NCBI GenBank assembly: GCA_019421865.1
Contig: JAHZEL010000015.1
Location: forward strand, 32,892 to 96,891
Source: Desulfovibrionaceae bacterium
GTDB lineage: Bacteria; Desulfobacterota; Desulfovibrionia; Desulfovibrionales; Desulfovibrionaceae
Reading direction: 5' to 3'
DNA: 64,000 nt
The notes under the pieces were generated by a model. The model made no database searches. It was not told where the DNA came from and saw only the letters and a program-made list of their open reading frames with translations. Below are positions 24,283 to 35,128 of this stretch, in pieces (the first letter of the stretch is position 1; every line of letters begins with the position of its first letter). The translations under genes and the position numbers were made by a program.

Positions 24283-24993
24283 CTAGGGCATATTCGTCAA
24301 ACGAAAACCCACCCGCGGAACTGTTTTCAAAATCGGCTTATTCTGCTGTTCCAGACGAGAGCGTAATGTATGGATATAGGTACGAAGCGCATCACTATTG
24401 GGAGGTGTATCGCCATAAAGCTCACTCTGCAGTTCACTGCGGCTGACGACATTGGGAGCCGACTTCATGAGACGAGCTAAAATGGTAAATGCCATAGGAG
24501 GCAGATGAAGATTATTACCATCACAGGTGACGGTATGCTTTTGCAAATCGAGCTCTATTCCTGCCCAGGTCAGTCGGTCTGAAGCGAAATGTGCCTTTGC
24601 AAGGCGTATGGCTGCAAGAACTCTTGCCTCAAGCTCCAGAAGATGCAGAGGGCTGGTCACAATATCATCGGCACCGCAGTTCAAATAGCGCGGCAGATTT
24701 TCCAAAGTGTTCTCTGGAACCAGCAGAATGATGGGACAACTGACCCGGTCTATGCGGAGGCAGGTATAAAGAGGGATGCCATTAAGATCCGTAAACTGCG
24801 CATCTATAATAAGCGCGTCATAAGAGGATGTCTTAAGGCAGTTTCTGACCTCTTCACTGTCCACGGCACTGTCAAGCTGATAGCCCATTGGCTCCAGATA
24901 CGAAAAAATATTTCTCATCACCGCTGTATCGGAGGTGGCGATAAGCAGATGAAGATCAGGAACAGAAAGCTGTTTTTTCAGGCTGTATAGCAT
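24283..24993 (-). CDS. Orphan OmpR-family regulator with degenerate (pseudo-)receiver domain
   Basis: 236 aa. The winged-helix C-terminus is intact (..LHLPPMAFTILARLM..LRTYIHTLRSRL..VPRVGFRL). The receiver keeps the Asp (ALIIDAQ), but the acidic pocket is TSD, not DD, and the conserved Thr and Lys positions read LLVPE and VTSP. Confidence 0.8.
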   Translation of the reverse strand: MLYSLKKQLSVPDLHLLIATSDTAVMRNIFSYLEPMGYQLDSAVDSEEVRNCLKTSSYDALIIDAQFTDLNGIPLYTCLRIDRVSCPIILLVPENTLENLPRYLNCGADDIVTSPLHLLELEARVLAAIRLAKAHFASDRLTWAGIELDLQKHTVTCDGNNLHLPPMAFTILARLMKSAPNVVSRSELQSELYGDTPPNSDALRTYIHTLRSRLEQQNKPILKTVPRVGFRLTNMP

Positions 24994-25110
24994 AGAGCAG
25001 CTCTCAGATCGTTTTTTGTTTTATGAATGGAGGAACGAGCTGCAGGAACTTGACCGGATAAGAACAACGAGCCCAGACACATCCGGTGCTTATTGGCCTT
25101 ATGTCCATTC

Positions 25111-25132
25111 ATACTAGGTTATGGCCTAGTAT
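25111..25132. promoter_or_regulatory. Perfect 8-6-8 inverted repeat, candidate operator upstream of the XRE gene
   Basis: ATACTAGG-TTATGG-CCTAGTAT, about 40 nt upstream of ATG 25172, in the divergent RR/XRE intergenic region. Confidence 0.45.
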
Positions 25133-25171
25133 CCGTCAAGAGCTCCCGACTTCTCCCCAAACGGAGGTTGT

Positions 25172-25417
25172 ATGCCTATTATCAGTAATCTCGGAATAAT
25201 AATGAAAAAAAAGAATATGACCTATGAAGATCTGCAACTTTTGTCACAGGTTGCTCCCGACACCATCGCCAGAGCACGAGACGGCAGAATCTCCACATGC
25301 AAGCTGGCTACGCTGGAAAAACTGGCCTGTGCTCTGGATGTCGATATCTGCCAGCTATTCCGGCATATACGCCCCCCGGAGGAAGCAAACATACAAAACA
25401 GACATCAACCCTCATGA
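25172..25417 (+). CDS. XRE-family helix-turn-helix protein
   Basis: 81 aa with SD GGAGG. HTH_3-like MTYEDLQLLSQVAPDTIARARDGRISTCKLATLEKLACALDVDICQLF. Confidence 0.8.
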   Translation: MPIISNLGIIMKKKNMTYEDLQLLSQVAPDTIARARDGRISTCKLATLEKLACALDVDICQLFRHIRPPEEANIQNRHQPS

Positions 25418-25440
25418 GCTACAAAAGCTGATACTAAAAC

Positions 25441-25466
25441 GGGAGAGGACTTGCATCCTCTCCCGT
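25441..25466 (-). terminator. Hairpin terminator downstream of the porin gene
   Basis: GGGAGAGGA-CTTGCAT-CCTCTCCC. On the minus strand it is followed by GTTTT. Confidence 0.55.
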
Positions 25467-25507
25467 GTAAACCGGTTCAGTTCAACACGGGGCAGCCCCG
25501 TATCGAA

Positions 25508-26851
25508 TTAGAACTTGTAAGCGAAGCTGAGAGCAGCGCTCCAGGAGTCTTCGTCAATCTTCTTGAGGCCAGCATGATCGTCCTTATCAAAGTCATTGAT
25601 GATGTAGGCGAGCTGCAGGTTGGCGGCCAGGTTCTTGTAGATCATATAGGTCGTATCGAGGTTGAAGTCGATAGCGGTATCGGAGTAGGTCATGTACGTA
25701 ATGGGATTCTCATTCAGAGAGTTACCGTCGCTGTTGGTACCCTTGTACATGGTCACGGAGAAAGCGTGGGTCAGGTCTTCGAGGAAGCTCACTTCCTTGA
25801 TACCGGCGCTCACGCCCCAGGTGCCACCGATGGCATGATGAGCAGTGAGCTGGGTGTCATACAGACCGTATTCACCGGGAACAAAGCCGAAGGAAGGATG
25901 GAAACGACCGGCCACAGTGGGAATCCAGCCCTGCTTGGCATACTGAGCATCGCGGTCGTCACCGGAACCGTACCAGGCACCCAAGAAAGGAGTACCATAG
26001 GCAGTCTTGTAGGAAGACATAGCCTGCACATACCAGCCGGAACGATCATTGTCGCCGTAGGAGCTGTCGAGGTTGGCCACACCATAGGCGCCGGAGAGCT
26101 TCAGTTCGAAGGGATCGAAATAGCTCAGGGTGCTGGTCACACCGAACCAGTAGGTATCAGCAGAAGCATTGTTCTCAGACACGGCATCATCATGGAACTT
26201 AGTGCCATGATCCATGGCGCCATACATAACATAGGGGGTCACGGCAAAGCCGTCGAACTTCATGGCAGCGGAAGCTGCGAACACGTCAGCCTTGTTAGCC
26301 TTGGAGGTATCGTTATCGTAAGACTGGACTTTCTCGCCGTCAAGCCAGTTGTTGTAGCCGGTGCGCACCCAGAAGGCGGTCACGTCGAGCCAGTCAGTCA
26401 CGGGGCTGGAGAGCACCACACCGTCACGGCTGTTCACGCCGGGATGCATGATAGCGTTCTTGCCGAAGGCGTCCATGGGAAGACCAACGAGCTGCTTACC
26501 CATACGAACCTTGACGGTGGTCTGAGGAATCATCCAGTCGATGTAAGCCTGACGAACGCCGATCTTGGTGTTGGCGTTGTTGCTGGTGCCCCAGTCGTTG
26601 GCGGCAGCGCTGTCAGCACCGATACCGGCCTGCATCTGCACATAACCGGAGAGATCTTCAGAAGCGGTGAAGGTCATGCCGAGACGGAAGCGCTGACCAG
26701 CAGCGTCAAAGTTGTCGCCGGAGAGGAGACGTTCACCGGTGATGAAGGTGAACACATATTCGCCGTCCATCTTCACGTCAACAGCGGACGCAGGAGCGGA
26801 AGCGGCAACAACCATGCCGGCAGCCAGAAGAAGAGTAGCAAGCTTTTTCAT
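25508..26851 (-). CDS. Outer-membrane beta-barrel porin
   Basis: 447 aa from ATG 26851 (SD AAGGA). Signal peptide MKKLATLLLAAGMVVAASAPASA, alternating beta-strand pattern, Gly/Asp/Tyr-rich, C-terminal ..ALSFAYKF. Confidence 0.85.
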   Translation of the reverse strand: MKKLATLLLAAGMVVAASAPASAVDVKMDGEYVFTFITGERLLSGDNFDAAGQRFRLGMTFTASEDLSGYVQMQAGIGADSAAANDWGTSNNANTKIGVRQAYIDWMIPQTTVKVRMGKQLVGLPMDAFGKNAIMHPGVNSRDGVVLSSPVTDWLDVTAFWVRTGYNNWLDGEKVQSYDNDTSKANKADVFAASAAMKFDGFAVTPYVMYGAMDHGTKFHDDAVSENNASADTYWFGVTSTLSYFDPFELKLSGAYGVANLDSSYGDNDRSGWYVQAMSSYKTAYGTPFLGAWYGSGDDRDAQYAKQGWIPTVAGRFHPSFGFVPGEYGLYDTQLTAHHAIGGTWGVSAGIKEVSFLEDLTHAFSVTMYKGTNSDGNSLNENPITYMTYSDTAIDFNLDTTYMIYKNLAANLQLAYIINDFDKDDHAGLKKIDEDSWSAALSFAYKF

Positions 26852-26892
26852 TGCAGTCATTCCTTTGAAAAAAGTGGTTGGTAACACCAGTG

Positions 26893-26913
26893 TGGAAAAT
26901 CCCTCTTTTTCCA
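26893..26913. promoter_or_regulatory. 7-7-7 inverted repeat in the porin leader/promoter
   Basis: TGGAAAA-TCCCTCT-TTTTCCA, 42-62 nt upstream of the porin start. It overlaps a 12-mer that recurs at 23867. Confidence 0.4.
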
Positions 26914-27757
26914 CGAAACGACACTGCAACAAGGCTTGATAATAAAATGTTAAAAATTCATTAGGTTTTAATAAAAAAACAGATACAATTTACTAATATT
27001 ATTATAATAAAAAAATTTTTACATTATCATTTACCAGTACTCAAAAAGCTAATCAGTTCCTGAAAAGCTCTCGAAATAAGTATCTGCGGTTTATAAAAAA
27101 TATTTACTATCAATATATTACACATAAAAAAGCTATTGCTCTTCTAGGCTTCCCCGCTCTTTCTACAGCCGCCCAAAAGCCTCCGCCGCTTCCAAGCAGA
27201 CTTTAATGGGGGGAGCCTCAGTTTTCAAAAAAAACACAAAATATATATTTATTATATTGAATTAATTATATTTTATTGCTATCAACCGATATATCTTCTC
27301 CTCTGAGCCCACAACGTTCCTCCTTATTTTTTTATTCTTGCCAAGGAACAATTTTTTTTACCCCTGCTCCGTGCCAACGGCCCGACACACCATCCCAAAC
27401 CGCCTTTACCGAACTCCCGGCGGCATAAAATGTTCTCACAGACGCTGTCGCATCATGGAGCGAACAAGGTGTACTGCGAGACGACCTCATAAAAAGTCCA
27501 CCTCCAGTGTCGACGTGAAGAGATGGTCTGTCATTTTCAATTTTTTGCAAAACAATATATAAGACGAAAATACTCAATAAAACCGATTACATTGTAAAAA
27601 TCATCATACATAAATATTACTACATATTTTCATCATCAAAGACAAAAGAATCACATAAAATCGTAATTCTTTGAATATATACACATTACCACCATAATAT
27701 CAAAAGGTTATATATTATTAATATTATATCATGCATCATGAAATATCTAGTTTAGAC

Positions 27758-30481
27758 TCATATCAAGCATAAAATATCACGAAGCATATTTTTCAGTCGC
27801 TCTTTCTCTCCTGAGCCTGTAGTGCTGAAACGAAAAAGAGGTATACCGTACCGCCTGCAAATACTATTTTTAAGAGCGTCCCGTTCTGCCTGCATGCCGT
27901 CCGGCCGATGAAAAGCCCAGCCATCGACCTCCACGGCAGCCACAATAGCTCGGCTCATCTTTTCAAAGATAAGAAAGTCCACATGCGTAAGGTCATTCAT
28001 GGCATACCGGCGCTCACGCTCCGATTCAAGCAGAGACATATCCCGCAAAAGCATACGAAGCGGAACATGTACATGGATGCCGTAGTCAGCAAGCCCCTCT
28101 TCCTTCAACACTTCCTCAATAAGGCCGAACATCAGATTCTCACTATCCATCTGAGACACCTTTTTCATACGTGCCAAAGTCTGACGGCGAATATCTGCGT
28201 ACTGCCGATAAAGGACATCAAACACGGAGCAGACCTTGCTGTCCGTTACTTCCATATTGTGATAACCGACATAATTGATCAGGTCGCCGATACTGGTATG
28301 CCGTCTGGGTCTGTTGCCGCTGGTAACGACAATAAGCCTGTCCACGGCACGGGAAACAGCGACATTCAACCGATGATCATCATCGGCGAAGTCCGAAATA
28401 TCATTATCCACCGTAGACAGAATGATCGTACTCCGTTCCTGCCCCTGAAATTTGTCCACAGTATCCGCAGCGGCTTTGCACAACGAAGCTTCCCGCTGGA
28501 GAGCATCCGCCTGGGCCCGGTAAGGGGTAACGATTCCCACGGTGTCAGCTCTGCCGCAAAGCCCGAAACGAGGAAAAATCTCCTGAGCTATGACATCTAT
28601 TTCTCTCTGATTCAGGTGATCTCGGGCGTGATTTCCAGGCACCGTGCGGAAAACCTGCAAGGGAACGTCATCTTCGTGACCGGTCGTCAGAACGATAAGC
28701 TCTCCGTTGTAAAATTTTTCATTGCAGAACCCTATGATGGCCGGATGGCAGCGGTAATGTTCCCGAAGAAGCGTACGCGGAATATCCGGAAAGCGTCTGG
28801 CGGCAAAACGAAGAAGGCTGTACTCGGAGACACGGAACTCTTCAGGTACGCCATATTGACGAAAAAGCGTATCCGTCATCCGACGCGCAGGTCCATCCAC
28901 AACATTCGGCAGCTGCTTCAGGTCGCCCACAATGACGGCCCGCCTGGCACACGATAATGCCAGCATGCCGGAGCAGAGACTCACCTGTGAAGATTCATCC
29001 ACAATAACGTACTCGTAGACAACGCTCTCTCCCAGGCTGCTCCGTAAAGAATGCGTCGTACTGAGAACTACGGGGTAATCCTTGATAAAGTCAGACGCTT
29101 CCCGCTGGAGATGAGCATAGACTCTGCGCGGCACCTTCCGATATCGCTCTGCCAGCATATGCTTGAACAGAATCATGGACCCGGCGGCATACTCATCCAT
29201 CTTCTTTCGGAAGCCCCATCCGTCCAGTTCCGCTTCCAGCTTTGCTATGCCTGACCGTATCTCTGAAAGTCGACGTTCATAAAAAAGTCTTCGGAGCCAT
29301 GTGCCGATGGCTGCAGGACTTTTCTTGAAAAACTCACCATCCCAAATACGGAAGCGAAGAAAAAAGAGTACCCGTCTCCACAGAGAAATTGACGCCGAGG
29401 TTTCAAATTCCGCCTCACACGACGCCAGAAGGCGAAGAACCGTATCGGAGTCGAGTTTACGAAACGCCGTACGAGCGTTCTCACTACTCTCCTCAAAAGA
29501 AAAGCAGTCAAGAAAGTGCGCCTGCTCCGTGCTGAGAGCCGCAAGCTCCGCCCGGAGCTCCGCCAGCCGGTTCTGCTTTGCCAGCTTCTCATTCAACGCC
29601 TTATGCAGAGAAGCAAGCTCTCCCTCCAGAGCCCTTTTTGCTCTCAGGTCCAGAGTCCAGCCCGACATATCCGGGAGCATCTTCTGACTTTCAAGAAACT
29701 TTTTCTTGTTTTCCTGACTGCCGAGAAAGGCACAAATAAATCCTACCCCGTACTTCTCAAGCTTTTCCTCCACATTACGAGTTGCAGAGTTATTGCTGGA
29801 AACGACGGCGGCGTTCAGTCCGCGCATGATAATATTGGCAAGAATATTGAGAATGGTCTGCGTCTTACCGGTTCCTGGAGGACCTTCGATAACGCTCATT
29901 TTGTTTGAAAGAGCATTCTCCACGGCCTTCTTCTGCGACTCATTAAAACCAAACGGATAATAAACAGGCGAGCTGCATGTCTGCTCTTCTTCAAGAATGG
30001 ATCCCTGCAGGCAATAAGAAAGAACCGTATGCTCCGAAACCAGATTCAGTTTCTCATACTGCCTGCCGAGAAAACTGGCCCCTCCATCGATCTTCAGACT
30101 ATCGTGAAACGCCAGCGCCTTGAGATACTCGAACAGCATCTTGTTTTTCGCATTGCCGAGACAGGAATGAATAACCTCCGTCTCACTTTGTTTCAGACAA
30201 ATCGACTTACCGTTCTGCCGAAAAAGACGCCAGTGTTCGGCAAACTTCTGGACTCTCACAAGATCAGTATAATGATATCCCCTCGACAGAAAGGCATACT
30301 CTTCGGCGGGAAGCTCTTCCGGATCGGCAAAGACGGAGGCCTTGTCGGCACCGCAGGTATAGATCGTGGGGTTGCCGCAAAACTTAAGCTTGATATATCG
30401 GCATTCCCTCGAGAATGATTCGATGTCGCAAGTCCGATCTTTTCCATGAAAAAGAATAAGATATTTGCTTATATCAGCCAC
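27758..30481 (-). CDS. SF1 (Upf1/DNA2-like, AAA_11/AAA_12) helicase fused to a C-terminal PD-(D/E)xK DUF2726/Vsr-like nuclease domain
   Basis: 907 aa with a GTG start and GGGAG SD. Motif I GPPGTGKT, II YVIVDESSQ, III VIVGDLKQLP, V DKFQGQERSTIILS, VI RLNVAVSRAVDRLIVV. C-terminus HVDFLIFEK..AAVEVDGWAFH..RDALKNSICRRYGIPLFRF. The N-terminal domain of about 170 aa is unassigned. Confidence 0.85.
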   Translation of the reverse strand: MADISKYLILFHGKDRTCDIESFSRECRYIKLKFCGNPTIYTCGADKASVFADPEELPAEEYAFLSRGYHYTDLVRVQKFAEHWRLFRQNGKSICLKQSETEVIHSCLGNAKNKMLFEYLKALAFHDSLKIDGGASFLGRQYEKLNLVSEHTVLSYCLQGSILEEEQTCSSPVYYPFGFNESQKKAVENALSNKMSVIEGPPGTGKTQTILNILANIIMRGLNAAVVSSNNSATRNVEEKLEKYGVGFICAFLGSQENKKKFLESQKMLPDMSGWTLDLRAKRALEGELASLHKALNEKLAKQNRLAELRAELAALSTEQAHFLDCFSFEESSENARTAFRKLDSDTVLRLLASCEAEFETSASISLWRRVLFFLRFRIWDGEFFKKSPAAIGTWLRRLFYERRLSEIRSGIAKLEAELDGWGFRKKMDEYAAGSMILFKHMLAERYRKVPRRVYAHLQREASDFIKDYPVVLSTTHSLRSSLGESVVYEYVIVDESSQVSLCSGMLALSCARRAVIVGDLKQLPNVVDGPARRMTDTLFRQYGVPEEFRVSEYSLLRFAARRFPDIPRTLLREHYRCHPAIIGFCNEKFYNGELIVLTTGHEDDVPLQVFRTVPGNHARDHLNQREIDVIAQEIFPRFGLCGRADTVGIVTPYRAQADALQREASLCKAAADTVDKFQGQERSTIILSTVDNDISDFADDDHRLNVAVSRAVDRLIVVTSGNRPRRHTSIGDLINYVGYHNMEVTDSKVCSVFDVLYRQYADIRRQTLARMKKVSQMDSENLMFGLIEEVLKEEGLADYGIHVHVPLRMLLRDMSLLESERERRYAMNDLTHVDFLIFEKMSRAIVAAVEVDGWAFHRPDGMQAERDALKNSICRRYGIPLFRFSTTGSGEKERLKNMLRDILCLI

Positions 30482-30732
30482 GACGAAACTCCCGACATAA
30501 TGTGACGACGTTATGTTATTTCATATAAAAAAATAACGACCTGTCAAACCGATAACTCGTAATACTCTTATCCTGAACACGCTATCTTCATTTAATACGT
30601 ATCATTTCGCGCTTTTTTCCGCAAACATCTTACACTCTTCCCCTCTCCTGCCCCTTTTTTCTCTTGAGAGAAAGACAGGAAAATTAAAAAGAAAAAGGGA
30701 TTACGATTTTCATCGTAAGCCCTTGAGCTTTC

Positions 30733-30776
30733 TGGTTGCGGGGAAAGGATTTGAACCAATGACCTTCGGGTTATGA
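30733..30776 (-). repeat. Displaced 3' 44 nt of tRNA-fMet (att-type direct repeat)
   Basis: Identical to 34372-34415 (TGGTTGCGGGGAAAGGATTTGAACCAATGACCTTCGGGTTATGA). Flanked at 30683-30732 by a diverged copy of the tRNA terminator. Confidence 0.9.
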
Positions 30777-31751
30777 AAACTTCTGTATGACAAGCCCTAT
30801 GAGGACAAGAAAAAAGTCCGAGTCTCCGGTCCATTTACCGTAGAAAGCCTCTCTCCGCATCGCGTTCTCGGCATAGGAGCCGACGGGGAGCTGCTCGACC
30901 CCGCCGCCGACAAGGCGGGAGAAGACGGTCGCGACTTTGTCGCCATGATTCTGGACAACCTGAAGACCGCCGGAGTGCAGCAGTCGCATAAGGAAGACAA
31001 AATAGACTTCATCAGTCTGACGCCCTGGCCCGGAGACATGATCTGCGCCGAAGGCCGCTACATGGAAGGCGATGTTGAACGCCGCGCCGGCATTTTCATC
31101 GGTCCGGAGTTCGGCACGGTCAGCCGTGAGGATCTGGTTCAGGCTTCGCGTGAAGTGGCCGATGCCGGATTCGACCTGCTCATAGCCTGCGCATTCAACT
31201 ACGAGGCTTCCGCTTCCGAGTTCCGCAAGCTCGGCAGGGTTCCCGTACTCAAGGCCCGCATGAATGCGGATCTGCACATGGGTGAATAGCTGAAGGCGAA
31301 CGGCAAAGGCAATCTGTTTGTGGTCTTCGGAGAGCCTGATATTTCCATTCTTCAGGAAACCGATGCCAACGGCAAGGAAACGGGAAACATCAAAGTCCAG
31401 ATCAACGGCGTGGATGTGTTCTATCCCAATACCGGCGAAATCCGCTCCGATAATGCGGACGGCATCGCCTGCTGGTTTGTGGACACGGATTATAACGAAG
31501 AGAGCTTCTTTGTGCGTCAGGCTTACTTCCTCGGCGCCAGCTCTGACCCTTATAAGGCACTCAAAACTTCCCTGAGGGCTGAAATCGACAAAAGCACCTG
31601 GGAAACACTTTGCAGCGCTACCTCTCGCCCCTTCCCCAAACCCGAAAGCGGTCGCATTGCCGTTAAGGTCATCAACCACCTGGGCGATGAAGTCATGAAG
31701 GTGTTAGGGTGGAATAAGAAATACATATACAGACAACTACATAATATATAA
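30777..31751 (+). pseudogene. 5'-truncated, stop-interrupted C-terminal part of a large site-specific DNA methyltransferase
   Basis: The frame opens exactly at the repeat junction (KLLYDKPYEDKKKVRVSGPFTVESLSPHRV..). In-frame TAG at 31287-31289. It continues ..GNLFVVFGEPDI..IACWFVDTDYNEESFFVRQAYFLGA..RIAVKVINHLGDEVMKV. There is no N-terminal catalytic domain. Confidence 0.75.
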
Positions 31752-31791
31752 AAGTGGCGCGTATAACATATAGTTTATACGCGCCACTTTT
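31750..31791. terminator. 17-bp perfect inverted repeat, bidirectional terminator between the methylase relic and ptuB
   Basis: AAAAGTGGCGCGTATAA ... TTATACGCGCCACTTTT. Confidence 0.7.
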
Positions 31792-31849
31792 ATATATAAA
31801 ATATACAGCACTTATTAAATTAGTTATATGTATTAAATCAAAAATATAT

Positions 31850-32449
31850 CTATAATAATCCTTGACGTTGTGCTTCTATCCATACAAATGGGGAATATTT
31901 TTGAAGATGAATTTCTGTCACCTCTTGCTCACAATATTCCTGATAATGCCTAGCTCGCATTTCCCGATTGTCGGGATCATCCAAGCCAAGCCGATCTATA
32001 GTTTCTTGAACTCGCTGTCTCAATCTTTCGGGTAAATGCGGATTAGGGAAAATACGCCCGCTGACAAATTCCAGGCGAAACCAGTCGTCTTTCACGTCAA
32101 AAGGATCAAGCACATCGCTAAAATCTCTCTTGCGACTGTTCATCCGCGAGCAGGCCAGCCGGTAATTGCTCCACTCATAGGCCTGATCAGCTCGGAGGGA
32201 TTTGGGGGCAAAATGATCCACCGTCCCCCCTCCTGTCGTCCATTCAAAAAAAACCGCAAGATACGCACAGCATTTACCATATACCGTGTATAACTCATTT
32301 AGTTCATCTCTCCAGTACGCAGGCAGCTTAGTTCTCTCGGGCAACGCTGCATTAGGGTCAATCCCCTTTTCCCGCAACCAGGCAAGCCCCTTCTGGCGGA
32401 CTTTTCTATCAAAGTCTTCTGGTTCAGGCTGTGGAGTGACATGAATCAT
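31850..32449 (-). CDS. ptuB: PtuB-like HNH-family nuclease (Septu-like system, component B)
   Basis: 199 aa from ATG 32449, with ATGA overlap to the upstream ATPase gene. HNH-like core ..CCAYLAVFF..GTVDHFAPKS..WSNYRLACSRMNSRK. Confidence 0.65.
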   Translation of the reverse strand: MIHVTPQPEPEDFDRKVRQKGLAWLREKGIDPNAALPERTKLPAYWRDELNELYTVYGKCCAYLAVFFEWTTGGGTVDHFAPKSLRADQAYEWSNYRLACSRMNSRKRDFSDVLDPFDVKDDWFRLEFVSGRIFPNPHLPERLRQRVQETIDRLGLDDPDNREMRARHYQEYCEQEVTEIHLQKYSPFVWIEAQRQGLL

Positions 32450-33726
32450 TGCAGCCACCCCTTTTTCTTTGCTACAAACCTCCAACGTATCCAGAAAGGA
32501 TCCGTTTCTGACAATACAGTGCGCAACTGCTGGTCCAACTTCTGGGCATCATCAGGACCAAAATTTTCATCACTCAGTGCAAGACTCGCATTTTCCAAGA
32601 CCTGTTCCGCCTCTTTAGAATAGCCCTGCTTCAGGTCAAAAGCCTTGCTGGTCAACCAATTATTGATATTCCCTAGTCGAATGAAATCCCGCTTTGTAAG
32701 CGTCACCTTGTCATCTGTCAAATCCAGGTCAAACCAGGCATCTTTTTTGCTGTCAAATAATGTTTCCACCGAGGCCATGATCAAAGGAGAATGAGTTGCG
32801 ACTATGAGCTGAATCTGCTCACTGGCACTAAGGGTCCCCATAACTTTCATCAAAGCCGGAATTACTGTTCGCTGCCACTTAGGATGCAGATGCGCTTCGA
32901 CCTCATCGACAAGAAAGACTGCCCTACTTTCTGCTTCTTCCCCCAACAACTCCTTAGCTTTTATATGCTCGTCCCAACACCAGACTAAAAAATAGGCCAA
33001 GGATATGATACGCCGCATACCGGAAGAAGCATGCAAGACGGGAACTTCCTGACCATAAGGCATGCTCAGAGTAGGCATATCCCGTGCATCATCCAGACTG
33101 ATTCGTGTCAACCGGCCAGGAACAAGCCTTTCCTCTTCCGAAGGTGACAAAACTTCAAGCACAGACTTCAGCGAGGCAAAGGCCTGACCATTTTCTTTCT
33201 GCCAGCTGGCCCAGTCCCGGATAAGCCCATTGCAAAGCCAAGCTCCTTCAGCAGTCTGTAACCCATCCCAAACTTCCGAAGGGCTGAACACATAGGCTGC
33301 GGGACGCGAATTTCCTTCTTCCCCTTTGGATTTCCAATAGTTGCGAGCAGGATCCCAAACCGCAAAGCTACCATCAGCCATGGCATAAAAAATCAGCCCA
33401 GGATTTGCAGGACGCCCTTGTTTGATTGTCCAATTCTGCATACGGGCATTGAAACTGCTCTTATGCTCCATAGACCTGGAAACCGCAGAAAACGATGTAC
33501 TGATAGTAGCTGCTTGTTTTTTATCCGTAGGCAAAGCAACCTTGCCTGCCGTCAAATGAGGATTCACTTCTGCTGGCCACTTGCGTGTCATAGACCACCA
33601 AATGATGTCCAACAAAAAACTCTTGCCTAACCCGTTATCTCCGGTAAGCAAATTCAAGCGACTGCCAAAATTCAGCTCCATGTTGGAGGCTGGTCCCACA
33701 TTGGACATAATGAGACGCGATATCAT
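32446..33726 (-). CDS. ptuA: PtuA-like ABC/SMC-type AAA ATPase (Septu-like system, component A)
   Basis: 426 aa. Walker A LLTGDNGLGKS, signature-like ASSGMRR, Walker B VFLVDEVEAHLHP, H-loop VATHSP. Confidence 0.7.
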   Translation of the reverse strand: MISRLIMSNVGPASNMELNFGSRLNLLTGDNGLGKSFLLDIIWWSMTRKWPAEVNPHLTAGKVALPTDKKQAATISTSFSAVSRSMEHKSSFNARMQNWTIKQGRPANPGLIFYAMADGSFAVWDPARNYWKSKGEEGNSRPAAYVFSPSEVWDGLQTAEGAWLCNGLIRDWASWQKENGQAFASLKSVLEVLSPSEEERLVPGRLTRISLDDARDMPTLSMPYGQEVPVLHASSGMRRIISLAYFLVWCWDEHIKAKELLGEEAESRAVFLVDEVEAHLHPKWQRTVIPALMKVMGTLSASEQIQLIVATHSPLIMASVETLFDSKKDAWFDLDLTDDKVTLTKRDFIRLGNINNWLTSKAFDLKQGYSKEAEQVLENASLALSDENFGPDDAQKLDQQLRTVLSETDPFWIRWRFVAKKKGWLQ

Positions 33727-34293
33727 ACTAAGGCTCCTCTTGCTCCCCGGATTTGCTTCTCCATCAGGGATGGGGCAAATAGTCGTTTACTATCATCCCC
33801 CTTAATATCGTTTTTTACCATAAAGGAAGCTACATCTCTTGGACCACCTCATTCGCAATAACGTGAGACGGATGTCCGTGCTCTAGCCATCGCCCCGCCC
33901 CAGAGACCCATGGATGCAAAACACTCTTTGCCTGTGCCCGATCAGATTTTCCGCCCTTCCTGTCAAAGCTTTCTATCTCTCATTTTTAACCTTTAATCCA
34001 GCCTCAAAATCCTATGTAATAAAAATTTTCAATAGTTATGATGTAAATTCAATTTATTTATCATTTAAAAATATGCATTAATCACCATTTATAACTTTCA
34101 TTTTATAGTATTATATTAGTATAGATTATTCAATTCATTTTAAAATATTCATATATACTATACAAATACTAAAATTTGCACTTTTTAATTATATCATTAA
34201 TTTTGTAAAAATTATAATTAACAAAGATATCTCAAAAAAAACTTATTTGATACGTGCCTTAAATAAAAAATTCCCCTGCACTCTCCAATTCTC

Positions 34294-34317
34294 TTGGTGG
34301 GAATATTGGTGGGAATA
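34294..34317 (+). repeat. Tandem 12-mer TTGGTGGGAATA x2
   Basis: Exact tandem duplication, 5 nt from the tRNA-fMet terminator on the island side. Confidence 0.8.
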
Positions 34318-34321
34318 AAAT

Positions 34322-34363
34322 TAAAAAAAGGAAAAGCCCTTACGATTTTCACCGTAAGGGCTT
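34322..34363 (-). terminator. Rho-independent terminator of tRNA-fMet
   Basis: Stem AAGCCCTTACG / CGTAAGGGCTT. On the minus strand it is followed by a T-run. Confidence 0.75.
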
Positions 34364-34371
34364 GATTTTAC

Positions 34372-34448
<77 letters not shown>

Positions 34449-34489: not shown

Positions 34490-34615
34490 CAAATTTTTTT
34501 TCGATTTTCTGAAATTTTTTTCCATGATTTTTATCCGTAAATAAAAGTCTGCTGACTTCTGTCGACTTTTATGCTAGACTTTCGGGCACACCATCAAATA
34601 TATGGGTCTAACACC

Positions 34616-35128
34616 ATGAAATTCTGGGAAATATCCGATTCTTTCTGGGAAGCCGTCAAACCTCTTATCCCGGAAAACGTCCGTGATCCGGAAAAAGTGT
34701 ACCAGCGCATCGCCGGCGGCGGACGCAAACCGCTCGACTACCGCAAAGTCTTTTCAGCCATCGTTTATGTTCTGAAAACCGGCACGCAATGGAAAGCGCT
34801 CCCCAAGGAATTCTACGGGAGCCCCAGCTCCATTCACGCCTACTTTAAAAAGTGGGAAGCGCAGGGACTGTTCAGCGAACTGTGGAAGAAAGGCCTTGCA
34901 GAATTTGAAGAAATGAAGGGCATTGCCTGGGAGTGGACCCTTGATACCACCCGCAGCGCCAAGGCGGCCGCCGAAGGCGCAGGCAAAATGAGAACGGATG
35001 CCGACGGCAATACCCCCTCGGAAGACTGCCGCATCTGGCGACCCGTCATCAGTCGCAGAAGCAGGGAACGGGCCAAGGCGCTCTGCGATAAGGCCACGGC
35101 ATTATTTACGGATAAGTTCAAATCTTGA
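34616..35128 (+). mobile_element. IS5-family (DUF4096 N-terminal) transposase remnant, lacking the DDE domain
   Basis: MKFWEISDSFWEAVKPLIPE..GGRKPLDYRKVFSAIVYVLKTGTQWKALPKEF..IHAYFKKWEAQGLF matches the IS5/IS4-like OrfA pattern. Similarity decays after about 140 aa. No catalytic domain and no terminal inverted repeats were seen. Confidence 0.65.

What the first reader, a model, noticed from the sequence alone, without database searches (positions are those of the whole stretch)
27758..30481. Single-gene helicase-nuclease candidate defence system (SF1 helicase + DUF2726/Vsr-like PD-(D/E)xK) with an unassigned N-terminal domain
This is a 907-aa protein, AT-richer than the core genome, isolated between long AT-rich spacers and immediately next to a tRNA-derived att repeat. 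It has a complete Upf1/DNA2-like SF1 helicase motif set (GPPGTGKT, VDESSQ, GDLKQLP, QGQERSTIILS, VAVSRAVDRLIVV) with a coiled-coil insertion. The C-terminal module of about 110 aa (HVDFLIF...VEVDGWAFH...RYGIPLFRF) is typical of DUF2726/DUF559/Vsr-type restriction-endonuclease-fold domains. The first 170 aa or so (ILFHGKDRTCDIESF...YHYTDLVRVQKF...) match nothing I recognise. Helicase-plus-nuclease single polypeptides are a recurring anti-phage architecture. From memory, comparable families are Nhi, Hhe, and type II Mokosh with a PLD nuclease. This domain order with an extra N-terminal sensor-like domain may be an undescribed variant. It is translated from GTG with a GGGAG SD.
Basis: partly seen in the sequence, partly recalled or inferred. 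Interest (0 to 1): 0.7.

Follow-up and report, generated by a model that had tools for sequence, protein, structure and literature searches.

The report
Uncatalogued helicase–nuclease candidate defence gene
This is a real 907-residue gene that joins a Upf1-type motor to a restriction-enzyme-like DNA cutter and an unrecognised N-terminal module; it belongs to a large, horizontally spread, unnamed family that often sits beside known anti-phage systems, so it is probably an undescribed relative of single-gene helicase–nuclease immune proteins, but nobody has tested that.

Summary
ORF 27758–30481 (−) encodes a 907-aa protein with GTG start, GGGAG Shine-Dalgarno site, GC 0.50 against 0.60 for the core genome, a complete Upf1-like SF1B helicase core, and a C-terminal DUF2726 PD-(D/E)xK nuclease whose putative catalytic residues are invariant across the family.

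The N-terminus is two small β-barrel modules plus a helical stalk. It has no sequence or fold match. It is confined to this family and is among its fastest-evolving parts.

The family is large, with over 5,000 clusters in at least seven phyla and copies in 12% of complete E. coli genomes. It carries only generic names. It has no partner gene and no conserved synteny.

About half of the inspected contexts contain defence or mobile-element genes. These include Septu in this window, AbiE, Shango, bSEFIR, type IIG R-M and integrases.

In this lineage the gene lies directly downstream of a tRNA-Met integration hotspot. The Septu islet inserted there later, so the helicase lies outside the att-bounded segment.

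PADLOC and NCBIfam match only the helicase core (MkoC, MkoA, Hhe). The protein is therefore not a member of Mokosh, Hhe or Nhi, but a nuclease-swapped analogue of type II Mokosh.

Verdict: a plausible, untested new variant of a known kind. Interest is moderate.

The parts
27758..30481 (-). Helicase–nuclease gene, 907 aa, GTG start, stop codon included
   Evidence: ORF list. Full-length homologues at 44–96% identity.
30489..30493 (-). Shine-Dalgarno GGGAG, 7 nt upstream of the GTG
   Evidence: Read from the sequence. Conserved in L106, L107 and L092.
30152..30481 (-). N-terminal family-specific module (res 1–110): two small all-β SH3-like barrels (strands at 7–52 and 55–106)
   Evidence: AF2 model with pLDDT 89. 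No significant PDB fold match: best E 9e-3, TM ≤ 0.2. No Pfam, PADLOC or NCBIfam hit. The profile finds 886 representatives, almost all with the module at the N-terminus of this family. Mean pairwise identity is 0.35.
29957..30151 (-). Helical stalk (res 111–175) leading into RecA1
   Evidence: AF2 helices at 111–127, 137–143 and 153–159. Positional equivalence to the Upf1/IGHMBP2 stalk is inferred from PDB sequence matches that begin at query residue ~178, chain residue ~189.
29696..29956 (-). RecA1 first half (res 176–262) with Walker A GPPGTGKT (K206)
   Evidence: Pfam AAA_11, AAA_19 and AAA_30. Invariant columns 198–212.
29123..29695 (-). ~190-aa helical insertion in RecA1 (res 263–453), at the position of the Upf1 1C 'prong'; probably coiled coil
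   Evidence: AAA_11 is split in the Pfam match. Only weak hits to coiled-coil families. Fast-evolving, mean identity 0.35. The structure itself was not predicted.
28802..29122 (-). RecA1 second half (res 454–560) with motif II VDESSQ and motif III GDLKQLP
   Evidence: Pfam AAA_11 at 454–528. D495, E496, Q499, G519, D520 and Q523 are invariant.
28319..28801 (-). RecA2 (res 561–721) with motifs IV–VI (QGQER, VAVSRA)
   Evidence: Pfam AAA_12, E 6e-26. PDB sequence matches to DNA2, IGHMBP2, Sen1 and Upf1.
28115..28318 (-). Helical linker (res 722–789)
   Evidence: AF2 helices. Sub-threshold HTH_60 hit, E 3.5e-4.
27761..28114 (-). DUF2726 PD-(D/E)xK nuclease (res 790–907); conserved D835, E851-x-D853, H858, Q864, R867-D868, K871
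   Evidence: Pfam DUF2726, E 3.9e-15. The residues are invariant. Best structural neighbours are BstEII, TnsA and PA endonuclease.
30686..30776 (-). Displaced 3' part of tRNA-Met (30733–30776) plus its terminator hairpin (30686–30732); the old attB side
   Evidence: Direct repeat with 34325–34415. The same fragment lies upstream of the helicase in L092 and L105, and an intact tRNA-Met lies there in L001.
30777..34371 (.). 3.6-kb att-bounded islet inserted into tRNA-Met (context, not part of the helicase unit). It holds a methyltransferase remnant (30777–31751, +), PtuB (31850–32485, −) and PtuA (32446–33726, −)
   Evidence: PADLOC PtuA E 4e-183, PtuB E 4e-75, MTase_III model positions 717–981 of 983.
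34372..34448 (-). Intact tRNA-Met(CAT), the integration target
   Evidence: ARAGORN and Rfam.

Best explanation
The gene encodes a stand-alone nucleic-acid-targeting immune enzyme against invading DNA, either phage or plasmid.

**Inferred from homology.**
- The Upf1-like SF1B core is an ATP-driven 5'→3' translocase. It would load on single-stranded tails, forks or RNA–DNA intermediates of a replicating invader.
- The covalently attached DUF2726 (Vsr-like PD-(D/E)xK) domain is a Mg2+-dependent DNase that cuts the DNA being tracked.

**Inferred from the evolutionary pattern.**
- The family-specific N-terminal tandem β-barrel module and the long helical insertion are the fast-evolving parts.
- They are proposed to set specificity or autoinhibition, by recognising an invader cue or mediating oligomerisation.
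- Nuclease activity would then be licensed only on foreign substrates.

**Shown computationally.**
- The domain architecture.
- Intact catalytic motifs across the family.
- The single-gene organisation.
- The accessory, horizontally transferred distribution.
- Frequent residence in defence or integration hotspots.

**Not shown.** Any phenotype, substrate, polarity or trigger.
For: **Architecture and catalytic residues.** All helicase motifs are present and the nuclease D/ExD/H/RD/K residues are invariant. The helicase class is the same as the validated defence helicases MkoC and MkoA (E 4e-51 and 3e-44). The helicase-then-C-terminal-nuclease order matches type II Mokosh, where Walker A and nuclease mutants abolish defence (paper 10.1101/2022.05.11.491447).

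**No partner gene, no synteny.** In 81 non-redundant loci, no neighbour family recurs in more than 6 loci.

**Patchy distribution.** The family spans at least seven phyla and is present in only 648 of 5,426 complete E. coli genomes.

**Composition.** Gene GC is 0.50 against 0.60 for the core genome.

**Defence or mobile-element neighbours.**
- Septu in this window.
- AbiEii twice, and an integrase with a SLFN_AlbA_2 protein.
- An integrase element carrying WYL, HIRAN and PemK genes.
- Shango SngB/SngC and a NERD+UvrD candidate in E. coli.
- bSEFIR, a type IIG R-M enzyme, a DrmD-like protein, YoeB and an integrase in Parabacteroides.

**Flanking versus distal ORFs.** Flanking ORFs include type I, III and IV restriction enzymes, PbeA and several PDC candidates. 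By a lower-bound tally that assumes the top-25 listed families hit non-overlapping proteins, that is at least ~14% of 132 flanking ORFs, against at least ~7% of 150 distal ORFs.

**Integration hotspot.** In this lineage the gene sits directly 3' of a tRNA-Met that has repeatedly received islands.

**Evolutionary rates.** The N-terminal module and the insertion evolve fastest (identity 0.35, against 0.66–0.76 for the RecA domains).
Against: - No experiment has been done.
- No PADLOC, NCBIfam or literature entry covers this architecture.
- Several copies are solitary between ordinary housekeeping genes (L001, L005, L006, L097, L101, L106).
- The near-versus-far enrichment is modest and only semi-quantitative, because the tallies show only the top 25 families.
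- The family is rare on plasmids (18 of 72,556 records) and almost absent from phages.
- The N-terminal module occupies the position of the ordinary Upf1-type 1B barrel and stalk, so it may not be a sensor at all.
- Upf1-like helicases also act on RNA, so the true substrate is open.
Confidence: 0.55

Rival explanations
1. Abortive-infection or toxin-type effector. The protein is held inactive until infection is sensed. The helicase-coupled nuclease then degrades host and invader DNA indiscriminately, killing or arresting the cell rather than selectively clearing the invader.
For: It is a single polypeptide with no methylase or other self-marking partner. Copies lie beside AbiE, PemK and YoeB toxin modules. 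From my own knowledge, not checked with a paper here, the single-gene helicase–nuclease Hna is reported to act by abortive infection.
Against: Nothing in the sequence distinguishes this from selective targeting. No antitoxin-like neighbour recurs. The frameshifted O157:H7 allele shows that loss is tolerated, but says nothing about toxicity.
Confidence: 0.2
2. RNA-directed or RNA/DNA-hybrid-directed surveillance. The Upf1-like motor tracks phage transcripts or R-loops, as proposed for Mokosh, and the nuclease cuts the associated nucleic acid.
For: The closest solved relatives include the RNA helicases Upf1, Sen1 and IGHMBP2. [quoted passage not shown]
Against: DNA2, a DNA helicase, is the top PDB sequence match. 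DUF2726 and Vsr-type domains are grouped with DNases such as Vsr and homing endonucleases (PMC3424549). The fold neighbours BstEII and TnsA are DNases.
Confidence: 0.12
3. Housekeeping DNA repair or replication helicase–nuclease, a bacterial DNA2-like enzyme, that merely happens to lie near an island.
For: The helicase core is most similar in sequence to DNA2. Some copies lie among core genes such as def-fmt, leuA and NAPRTase.
Against: There is no conserved synteny. Distribution is patchy: 12% of E. coli genomes and scattered phyla. GC is atypical. The gene is frameshifted without consequence across the O157:H7 lineage. The domain order is the opposite of DNA2. Defence genes are frequent neighbours.
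Confidence: 0.07
4. Selfish mobile cassette. The nuclease, from a superfamily that includes homing endonucleases, and the helicase together promote the gene's own spread into new intergenic sites, without benefit to the host.
For: Relatives of 70–96% identity occupy several different loci, with AT-rich flanks and usually no adjacent integrase or transposase. The Vsr/DUF559/DUF2726 group includes a group I intron homing endonuclease (PMC3424549).
Against: No terminal repeats flank the gene. Homology between relatives at different loci ends at or inside the ORF, except where the shared tRNA-Met explains it. A 907-aa helicase is atypical for homing endonuclease genes.
Confidence: 0.06

Closest known systems
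Type II Mokosh (MkoC)
   Same: Single polypeptide. COG1112/Upf1-like SF1 helicase followed by a C-terminal nuclease. It gives the best PADLOC hit (MkoC E 4e-51, MkoA E 3e-44, over the helicase core). Found in defence islands.
   Different: The nuclease is a PD-(D/E)xK DUF2726 domain, not PLD. No PLD hit appears in Pfam. The N-terminal, insertion and C-terminal regions match no PADLOC model at E ≤ 1. The protein is shorter: 907 aa against a 1,136-position model. It is untested experimentally.
Hhe (Gao_Hhe / HheA)
   Same: Single-gene system with an AAA_11/AAA_12 helicase. From my own knowledge, Hhe also carries a C-terminal Vsr-like restriction-fold nuclease. Some homologues of the window protein, and the protein itself weakly (E 0.0097, below the cut-off), hit Pfam MTES_1575.
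   Different: About half the size. No DUF4011. It scores 90.6 bits against NCBIfam Hhe_antiphage, whose cut-off is 2000. The PADLOC Hhe match covers only residues 181–264. The C-terminal region does not hit the Hhe model.
Nhi (nuclease-helicase immunity)
   Same: Single multifunctional nuclease plus SF1 helicase protein, proposed to act on phage nucleic acid.
   Different: From my own knowledge, the domain order is the opposite (nuclease N-terminal). The PADLOC Nhi match is E 0.003 and covers only the Walker A region.
Eukaryotic DNA2 and the Upf1/IGHMBP2/Sen1 helicases
   Same: SF1B helicase core, giving the top PDB sequence matches. An N-terminal accessory region precedes RecA1 and an insertion lies within RecA1, at the positions of the 1B/stalk and 1C domains.
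   Different: DNA2 carries its nuclease N-terminal to the helicase. No 1B, CH or other accessory-domain Pfam families match, and the fold search of the N-terminus recovers none of these proteins.
Helicase-coupled nucleases of two-component systems (Hachiman HamAB, Druantia DruE–DruH)
   Same: The general logic, in which a helicase surveys DNA structure and licenses an attached or partnered nuclease (abstracts seen).
   Different: Those use SF2 helicases, multi-protein complexes and unrelated nuclease domains.

Membership tests
Type II Mokosh | COG1112/Upf1-like helicase domain | tested here: met
   PADLOC MkoC E 4.1e-51 (res 465–720 aligned to model 634–942) and MkoA E 2.6e-44. PDB sequence hits to Upf1.
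Type II Mokosh | PLD-family nuclease at the C-terminus | tested here: not met
   The C-terminus is DUF2726. There is no PLD family hit. The C-terminal 186 aa hit no PADLOC model at E ≤ 1.
Type II Mokosh | Helicase and nuclease in one gene, with the helicase N-terminal to the nuclease | tested here: met
   Domain order from Pfam. Family definition.
Type II Mokosh | Anti-phage phenotype dependent on the Walker A motif and the nuclease active site | not testable with these tools
   Needs phage challenge of wild type against K206A and D835/E851/D853 mutants.
Hhe | Score above the NCBIfam equivalog cut-off (NF042953, 2000 bits), full-length ~1,800 aa | tested here: not met
   90.6 bits, matching only helicase stretches. 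The protein is 907 aa.
Hhe | DUF4011 N-terminal region | tested here: not met
   No DUF4011 hit in Pfam at E ≤ 1.
Hhe | C-terminal Vsr-like/MTES_1575 nuclease | tested here: inconclusive
   MTES_1575 gives E 0.0097 and 16 bits against a cut-off of 38. Some homologues carry PF18741. The PADLOC Hhe model does not match the C-terminus.
Nhi | Nhi-type nuclease plus SF1 helicase, matching the Nhi model | tested here: not met
   PADLOC Nhi E 0.0032, covering only res 182–233.
DUF2726 (PF10881) PD-(D/E)xK nucleases | Pfam gathering score and conserved acidic and lysine catalytic residues | tested here: met
   52–56 bits against a cut-off of 24.7. D835, E851, D853, H858, R867, D868 and K871 are invariant. 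Restriction-fold structural neighbours.
Upf1-like SF1B helicases | AAA_11 plus AAA_12 with motifs I–VI | tested here: met
   Pfam E 5e-25 and 6e-26. Motifs are invariant.
Upf1-like SF1B helicases | 5'→3' polarity and nucleic-acid-stimulated ATPase | not testable with these tools
   Needs a biochemical assay.
Defence-island gene (operational definition) | Most homologues lie within ~10 genes of known defence genes | tested here: inconclusive
   7 of 13 individually inspected contexts have defence or mobile-element neighbours. Tallies on 81 loci show a modest excess near the gene. No genome-wide background could be computed.

The most novel reading that the evidence does not exclude
This is a widespread but unrecognised single-protein immune system, with over 5,000 sequence clusters, copies in at least seven phyla, and presence in 12% of complete E. 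coli genomes including EHEC and O104:H4 islands. In this reading, a family-specific, fast-evolving tandem β-barrel N-terminal module with no known fold relative is the invader sensor or autoinhibitor. It licenses a Upf1-like translocase coupled to a Vsr-like DNase. The rare natural 'mini' proteins that join the N-terminal module directly to the nuclease without the helicase (P0170, P0218, P0140) would then be a minimal sensor–effector pair.
Probability: 0.3. Interest if true: 0.65.

Novelty: new variant of a known kind. Interest (0 to 1): 0.5.

Why it matters
If the protein does defend, it would add a common and compact member (one gene, 2.7 kb) to the helicase–nuclease class of bacterial immunity. 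It is present in many gut anaerobes and in pathogenic E. coli islands, yet invisible to the versions of the defence-annotation resources tested here.

It would also show that the Mokosh-type Upf1-like motor can be paired with interchangeable nuclease folds, which is an instance of modular effector swapping.

The unmatched N-terminal module would be a candidate new sensing domain.

E. coli supplies a ready natural experiment, because intact alleles can be compared with the frameshifted O157:H7 allele.

If the protein does not defend, the family is still a large and uncharacterised group of accessory helicase–nucleases.

Tried and rejected
1. **A conserved partner gene.** Rejected. Clustering 755 neighbour ORFs from 81 loci found no family in more than 6 loci.
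2. **A third tRNA-Met att copy bounding the helicase segment.** None found, even with 3 mismatches allowed.
3. **Terminal repeats flanking the gene, as a discrete mobile cassette would have.** Only short, chance-level repeats were found.
4. **The E. coli 171-aa plus 722-aa pair as a genuine two-gene variant.** Rejected. Most E. coli genomes annotate one intact 893-aa ORF that is 1 bp longer, so the O157:H7 split is a frameshift.
5. **The N-terminus as a recognisable Upf1/IGHMBP2 1B barrel.** No Pfam 1B family matched, and no such protein appeared among the top fold hits. The idea survives only as positional equivalence.
6. **The N-terminal module in other protein architectures.** The exhaustive profile search found it essentially only in this family. 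Most short hits are contig-end fragments.
7. **Rfam scan of the island.** Only the two tRNAs were found, plus one sub-threshold miRNA match (31.1 bits against an 81-bit gathering score, E 0.019) taken as chance.
8. **tblastx synteny between the window and relatives.** Too noisy to use. The blastn results were used instead.
9. **Literature searches** for DUF2726, AAA_11/AAA_12 and Upf1-like helicase defence systems. Nothing describes this architecture.
10. **The host organism could not be named.** The exact-sequence look-up carried no names. Relatives and context suggest a Desulfovibrionaceae-like, GC-rich anaerobe, but that is a guess.
Full report
**1. The observation.**

The ORF exists exactly as reported. 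It spans 27758–30481 on the minus strand, encodes 907 aa, and starts at GTG. The sequence shows GGGAG at 30489–30493, 7 nt upstream of the GTG. The same arrangement is kept in a related strain, and close homologues start at the same residues.

The gene has GC 0.503, against 0.60 for the rest of the window. It lies inside a low-GC stretch running from about 23.7 to 34.8 kb. It is flanked by AT-rich non-coding DNA at 26933–27757 and 30482–30685.

About 250 nt upstream of the start lies an exact 44-nt copy of the 3' part of tRNA-Met(CAT), at 30733–30776. The full gene is at 34372–34448. The copy is embedded in a 91-nt direct repeat that also covers the downstream terminator hairpin.

**2. Anatomy of the protein.**

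Pfam assigns three regions:
- AAA_11, split into residues 180–260 and 454–528.
- AAA_12, at residues 566–721.
- DUF2726, at residues 779–900 (E 7.6e-14, above the curated cut-off).

The solved structures closest in sequence are DNA2, IGHMBP2, Sen1 and Upf1, so this is an SF1B Upf1-like core.

In a 37-sequence alignment, identity to the window protein ranges from 44% to 87%. Two sets of residues are invariant or nearly so:
- The helicase motifs: Walker A (GPPGTGKT, with K206), DE(A/S)SQ, GD(L)KQL, QG(Q)E and SRA.
- The putative nuclease residues: D835, E851, D853, H858, Q864, R867, D868 and K871.

A model of the C-terminal 186 residues has pLDDT of about 90 in the nuclease core. Its best structural neighbours are all PD-(D/E)xK enzymes: the restriction enzyme BstEII (probability 0.98), TnsA and influenza PA endonuclease.

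The ~190-residue insertion in RecA1 (residues 263–453) is real. I could not model it, so its coiled-coil character rests only on composition and weak matches.

**3. The N-terminus.**

Nothing in Pfam, PADLOC or NCBIfam matches residues 1–175, even at E ≤ 1.

An AlphaFold model built on 110 homologues is confident, with pLDDT 89. It shows two consecutive small all-β modules (strands at 7–52 and 55–106), followed by helices at 111–159.

Foldseek against the PDB finds nothing significant: best E is 9e-3 and TM is at most 0.2. The weak hits are tandem Tudor, SH3b and KOW barrels.

A profile of residues 1–112 was searched against 1.84 billion representative proteins. It finds 886 hits at E ≤ 1e-3. 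In all but one of the 150 best hits the module lies at or within ~30 residues of the N-terminus, and most of them are full-length or truncated members of this family.

Some members lack the module:
- P0107 and P0117 lack it.
- In many genome loci the alignment begins only at residue 80–157.

Per-domain mean pairwise identity is as follows:

| Region | Mean pairwise identity |
|---|---|
| N-terminal module | 0.35 |
| RecA1 insertion | 0.35 |
| RecA domains | 0.66–0.76 |
| Nuclease | 0.53 |

The accessory parts are therefore the fast-evolving ones.

A caveat applies. The N-terminal region occupies the position where Upf1-like helicases carry their 1B barrel and stalk (one search gives the register). 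Part of it may therefore be an ordinary helicase accessory domain that has diverged beyond recognition.

**4. The family and its genomic behaviour.**

The word-indexed search returned over 5,000 proteins at E ≤ 1e-5. The top 120 are nearly all ~900 aa (813–949), all with DUF2726. They are named only 'AAA domain-containing protein' or 'DUF2726 domain-containing protein'.

Reference genomes place the family in Bacillota, Bacteroidota, Spirochaetota, Campylobacterota, Chlorobiota, Fibrobacterota and Melainabacteria. A Desulfovibrionaceae MAG copy appears in the protein search (P0117).

Clustering 755 neighbour ORFs from 81 non-redundant loci found no family present in more than 6 loci. So there is no partner gene and no conserved synteny.

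The contexts I inspected individually fall into two groups.

*Contexts with defence or mobile-element genes:*
- Septu, in this window.
- An integrase element carrying WYL, HIRAN, HD and PemK genes.
- An integrase with a SLFN_AlbA_2 protein.
- AbiEii, twice.
- In E. coli islands, IbrAB, a bona fide Shango system (SngB and SngC, E ≤ 1e-186) and a NERD+UvrD candidate.
- In Parabacteroides, a bSEFIR, type IIG R-M, DrmD-like, YoeB and integrase cluster.

*Solitary copies among housekeeping genes:*.

Family tallies on ORFs immediately flanking the gene show type I, III and IV restriction enzymes, Mrr, DUF1016, Fic, PbeA and several PADLOC candidate families. ORFs more than 7 kb away are mostly metabolic or regulatory, with scattered single defence hits. 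That is an excess, but a modest and only semi-quantitative one.

In E. coli the gene is present in 648 of 5,426 complete genomes. It is rare on plasmids (18 records) and nearly absent from phage records.

**5. The tRNA-Met relationship, refined.**

The helicase is not inside the att-bounded segment. The 3.6 kb between the two repeat copies (30777–34371) carries three things:
- PtuA and PtuB, which make up a Septu system.
- The last third of a methyltransferase, cut exactly at the repeat edge and also frameshifted.
- No integrase.

The helicase begins 205 nt beyond the displaced tRNA 3' end and its hairpin.

Comparison with relatives explains this arrangement:
- In L001 (77% protein identity), an intact tRNA-Met lies directly upstream of the helicase.
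- In L092 (87% identity), the same displaced tRNA fragment and hairpin precede the helicase, with an integrase-bearing element on the other side.
- Nucleotide homology between the window and both of these loci ends exactly at 30776.
- In L106 (same 90% cluster), the tRNA part has been replaced from about 150 nt upstream of the start. The porin, HTH, response-regulator and kinase side is shared at 97% identity.

So 'tRNA-Met, then terminator, then helicase–nuclease' is the older arrangement in this lineage. The tRNA has since served as a repeated integration site, which is a typical way for a defence island to grow. More distant relatives (70–79% identity) sit at unrelated loci without a tRNA.

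**6. Comparison with known systems.**

PADLOC's best hits all cover only the helicase core:

| PADLOC model | E-value |
|---|---|
| MkoC | 4e-51 |
| MkoA | 3e-44 |
| PDC-S37 | 2e-36 |
| Hhe | 1e-17 |

The N-terminal, insertion and C-terminal regions each hit no PADLOC model at E ≤ 1. No NCBIfam model approaches its cut-off: Hhe scores 91 bits against 2000, and ProA scores 122 against 1500. The E. coli family member behaves identically.

Mokosh is defined as a COG1112/Upf1-like helicase plus a PLD nuclease. In type II the two are fused in that order, and defence is abolished by ATP-site and PLD-site mutations.

The present protein shares the helicase class, the single-gene format and the domain order. 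It has a PD-(D/E)xK nuclease instead of PLD, so it works like type II Mokosh but fails a defining feature.

It is not Hhe: the size is wrong, DUF4011 is absent, and the model is not met. It is not Nhi either. No paper in the library describes a helicase–DUF2726 defence protein.

**7. Mechanism.**

My best reading, with confidence about 0.55, is a stand-alone immune enzyme. Its three proposed components rest on different kinds of evidence:
- An SF1B motor that loads on single-stranded or forked intermediates of an invading replicon and translocates 5'→3'. This is inferred from the family.
- A tethered Vsr-like DNase that cleaves the tracked DNA. This is inferred from conserved residues and fold.
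- Specificity or autoinhibition supplied by the fast-evolving N-terminal β modules and the helical insertion. This is inferred from rates and modularity.

Rival readings are listed separately: abortive toxin, RNA-directed action, housekeeping repair and selfish cassette.

**8. Verdict.**

The defence interpretation is plausible and moderately supported by context, but untested.

It is best described as a new variant of a known kind, namely single-gene Upf1-like helicase–nuclease immunity. Three features go beyond that description:
- A family-specific N-terminal module.
- A wide distribution.
- Absence from the defence catalogues I could query.

Noticed in passing
window 31850–33726 (−): A complete Septu system: PtuA at 32446–33726 (E 4e-183) and PtuB at 31850–32485 (E 4e-75). 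It sits in a 3.6-kb islet bounded by tRNA-Met att repeats, and the islet contains no integrase.
   Followed up: partly
window 30777–31751 (+): Remnant of a large methyltransferase (PADLOC MTase_III model positions ~717–981 of 983). Its 5' two-thirds are missing, with the break exactly at the edge of the tRNA repeat (30776/30777). A further frameshift lies between the ORFs at 30945–31289 and 31320–31751.
   Followed up: partly
window 30686–30732 vs 34325–34371: The two copies of the hairpin downstream of the tRNA differ by swapped stem halves (GGGATTACGA…TCGTAAGCCC against GCCCTTACGA…CCGTAAGGGC). The structure is kept while the sequence is exchanged, so the islet seems to have brought its own tRNA 3' end and terminator from a related genome.
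   Followed up: no
window 34571–35128 (+): A fragment of an IS4/IS5-family transposase (DUF4096, E 5e-20) immediately beside the intact tRNA-Met.
   Followed up: no
window 27037–27782: The 746-bp spacer downstream of the helicase has no counterpart in the otherwise 95–97% identical strain L106, which has an unrelated 267 bp there. It contains a GC-richer piece (~27130–27560) with only short overlapping ORFs and no Rfam match. Its origin is unknown.
   Followed up: partly
window 24283–26932: The low-GC stretch also carries an OmpR-type response regulator (24283–24993, −), an XRE/HTH_26 protein (25172–25417, +) and a 474-aa porin-like protein with no confident Pfam match (25508–26932, −). These are shared with strain L106. 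A paralogous porin-like gene is present in L001.
   Followed up: no
proteins P0170, P0218, P0140, P0257: Rare cluster representatives of 257–456 aa join the family's N-terminal β module directly to the linker and DUF2726 nuclease, with no helicase or only a fragment of it. They could be in-frame deletion derivatives or genuine minimal variants. P0221 and P0235 instead fuse the N-terminal module to an ABC/SMC-like ATPase C-terminus and may be chimeras.
   Followed up: partly
L100 9483–12163; L103 9001–11682; L104: The E. coli family member is intact (893 aa) in most carriers, such as O104:H4. In O157:H7 genomes it is split by a 1-bp frameshift into 171-aa and 722-aa ORFs, exactly at the boundary between the N-terminal region and the helicase. 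It lies in IS-rich islands next to ibrA/ibrB, and in strain 2015C-3905 next to Shango and a NERD+UvrD candidate.
   Followed up: partly
L106 8764–9848: In the related strain, the tRNA-Met region is replaced by ~1.1 kb of non-coding DNA next to a phn (C-P lyase) operon that is absent from this 64-kb window. This indicates a rearrangement with a breakpoint about 150 nt upstream of the helicase start.
   Followed up: no
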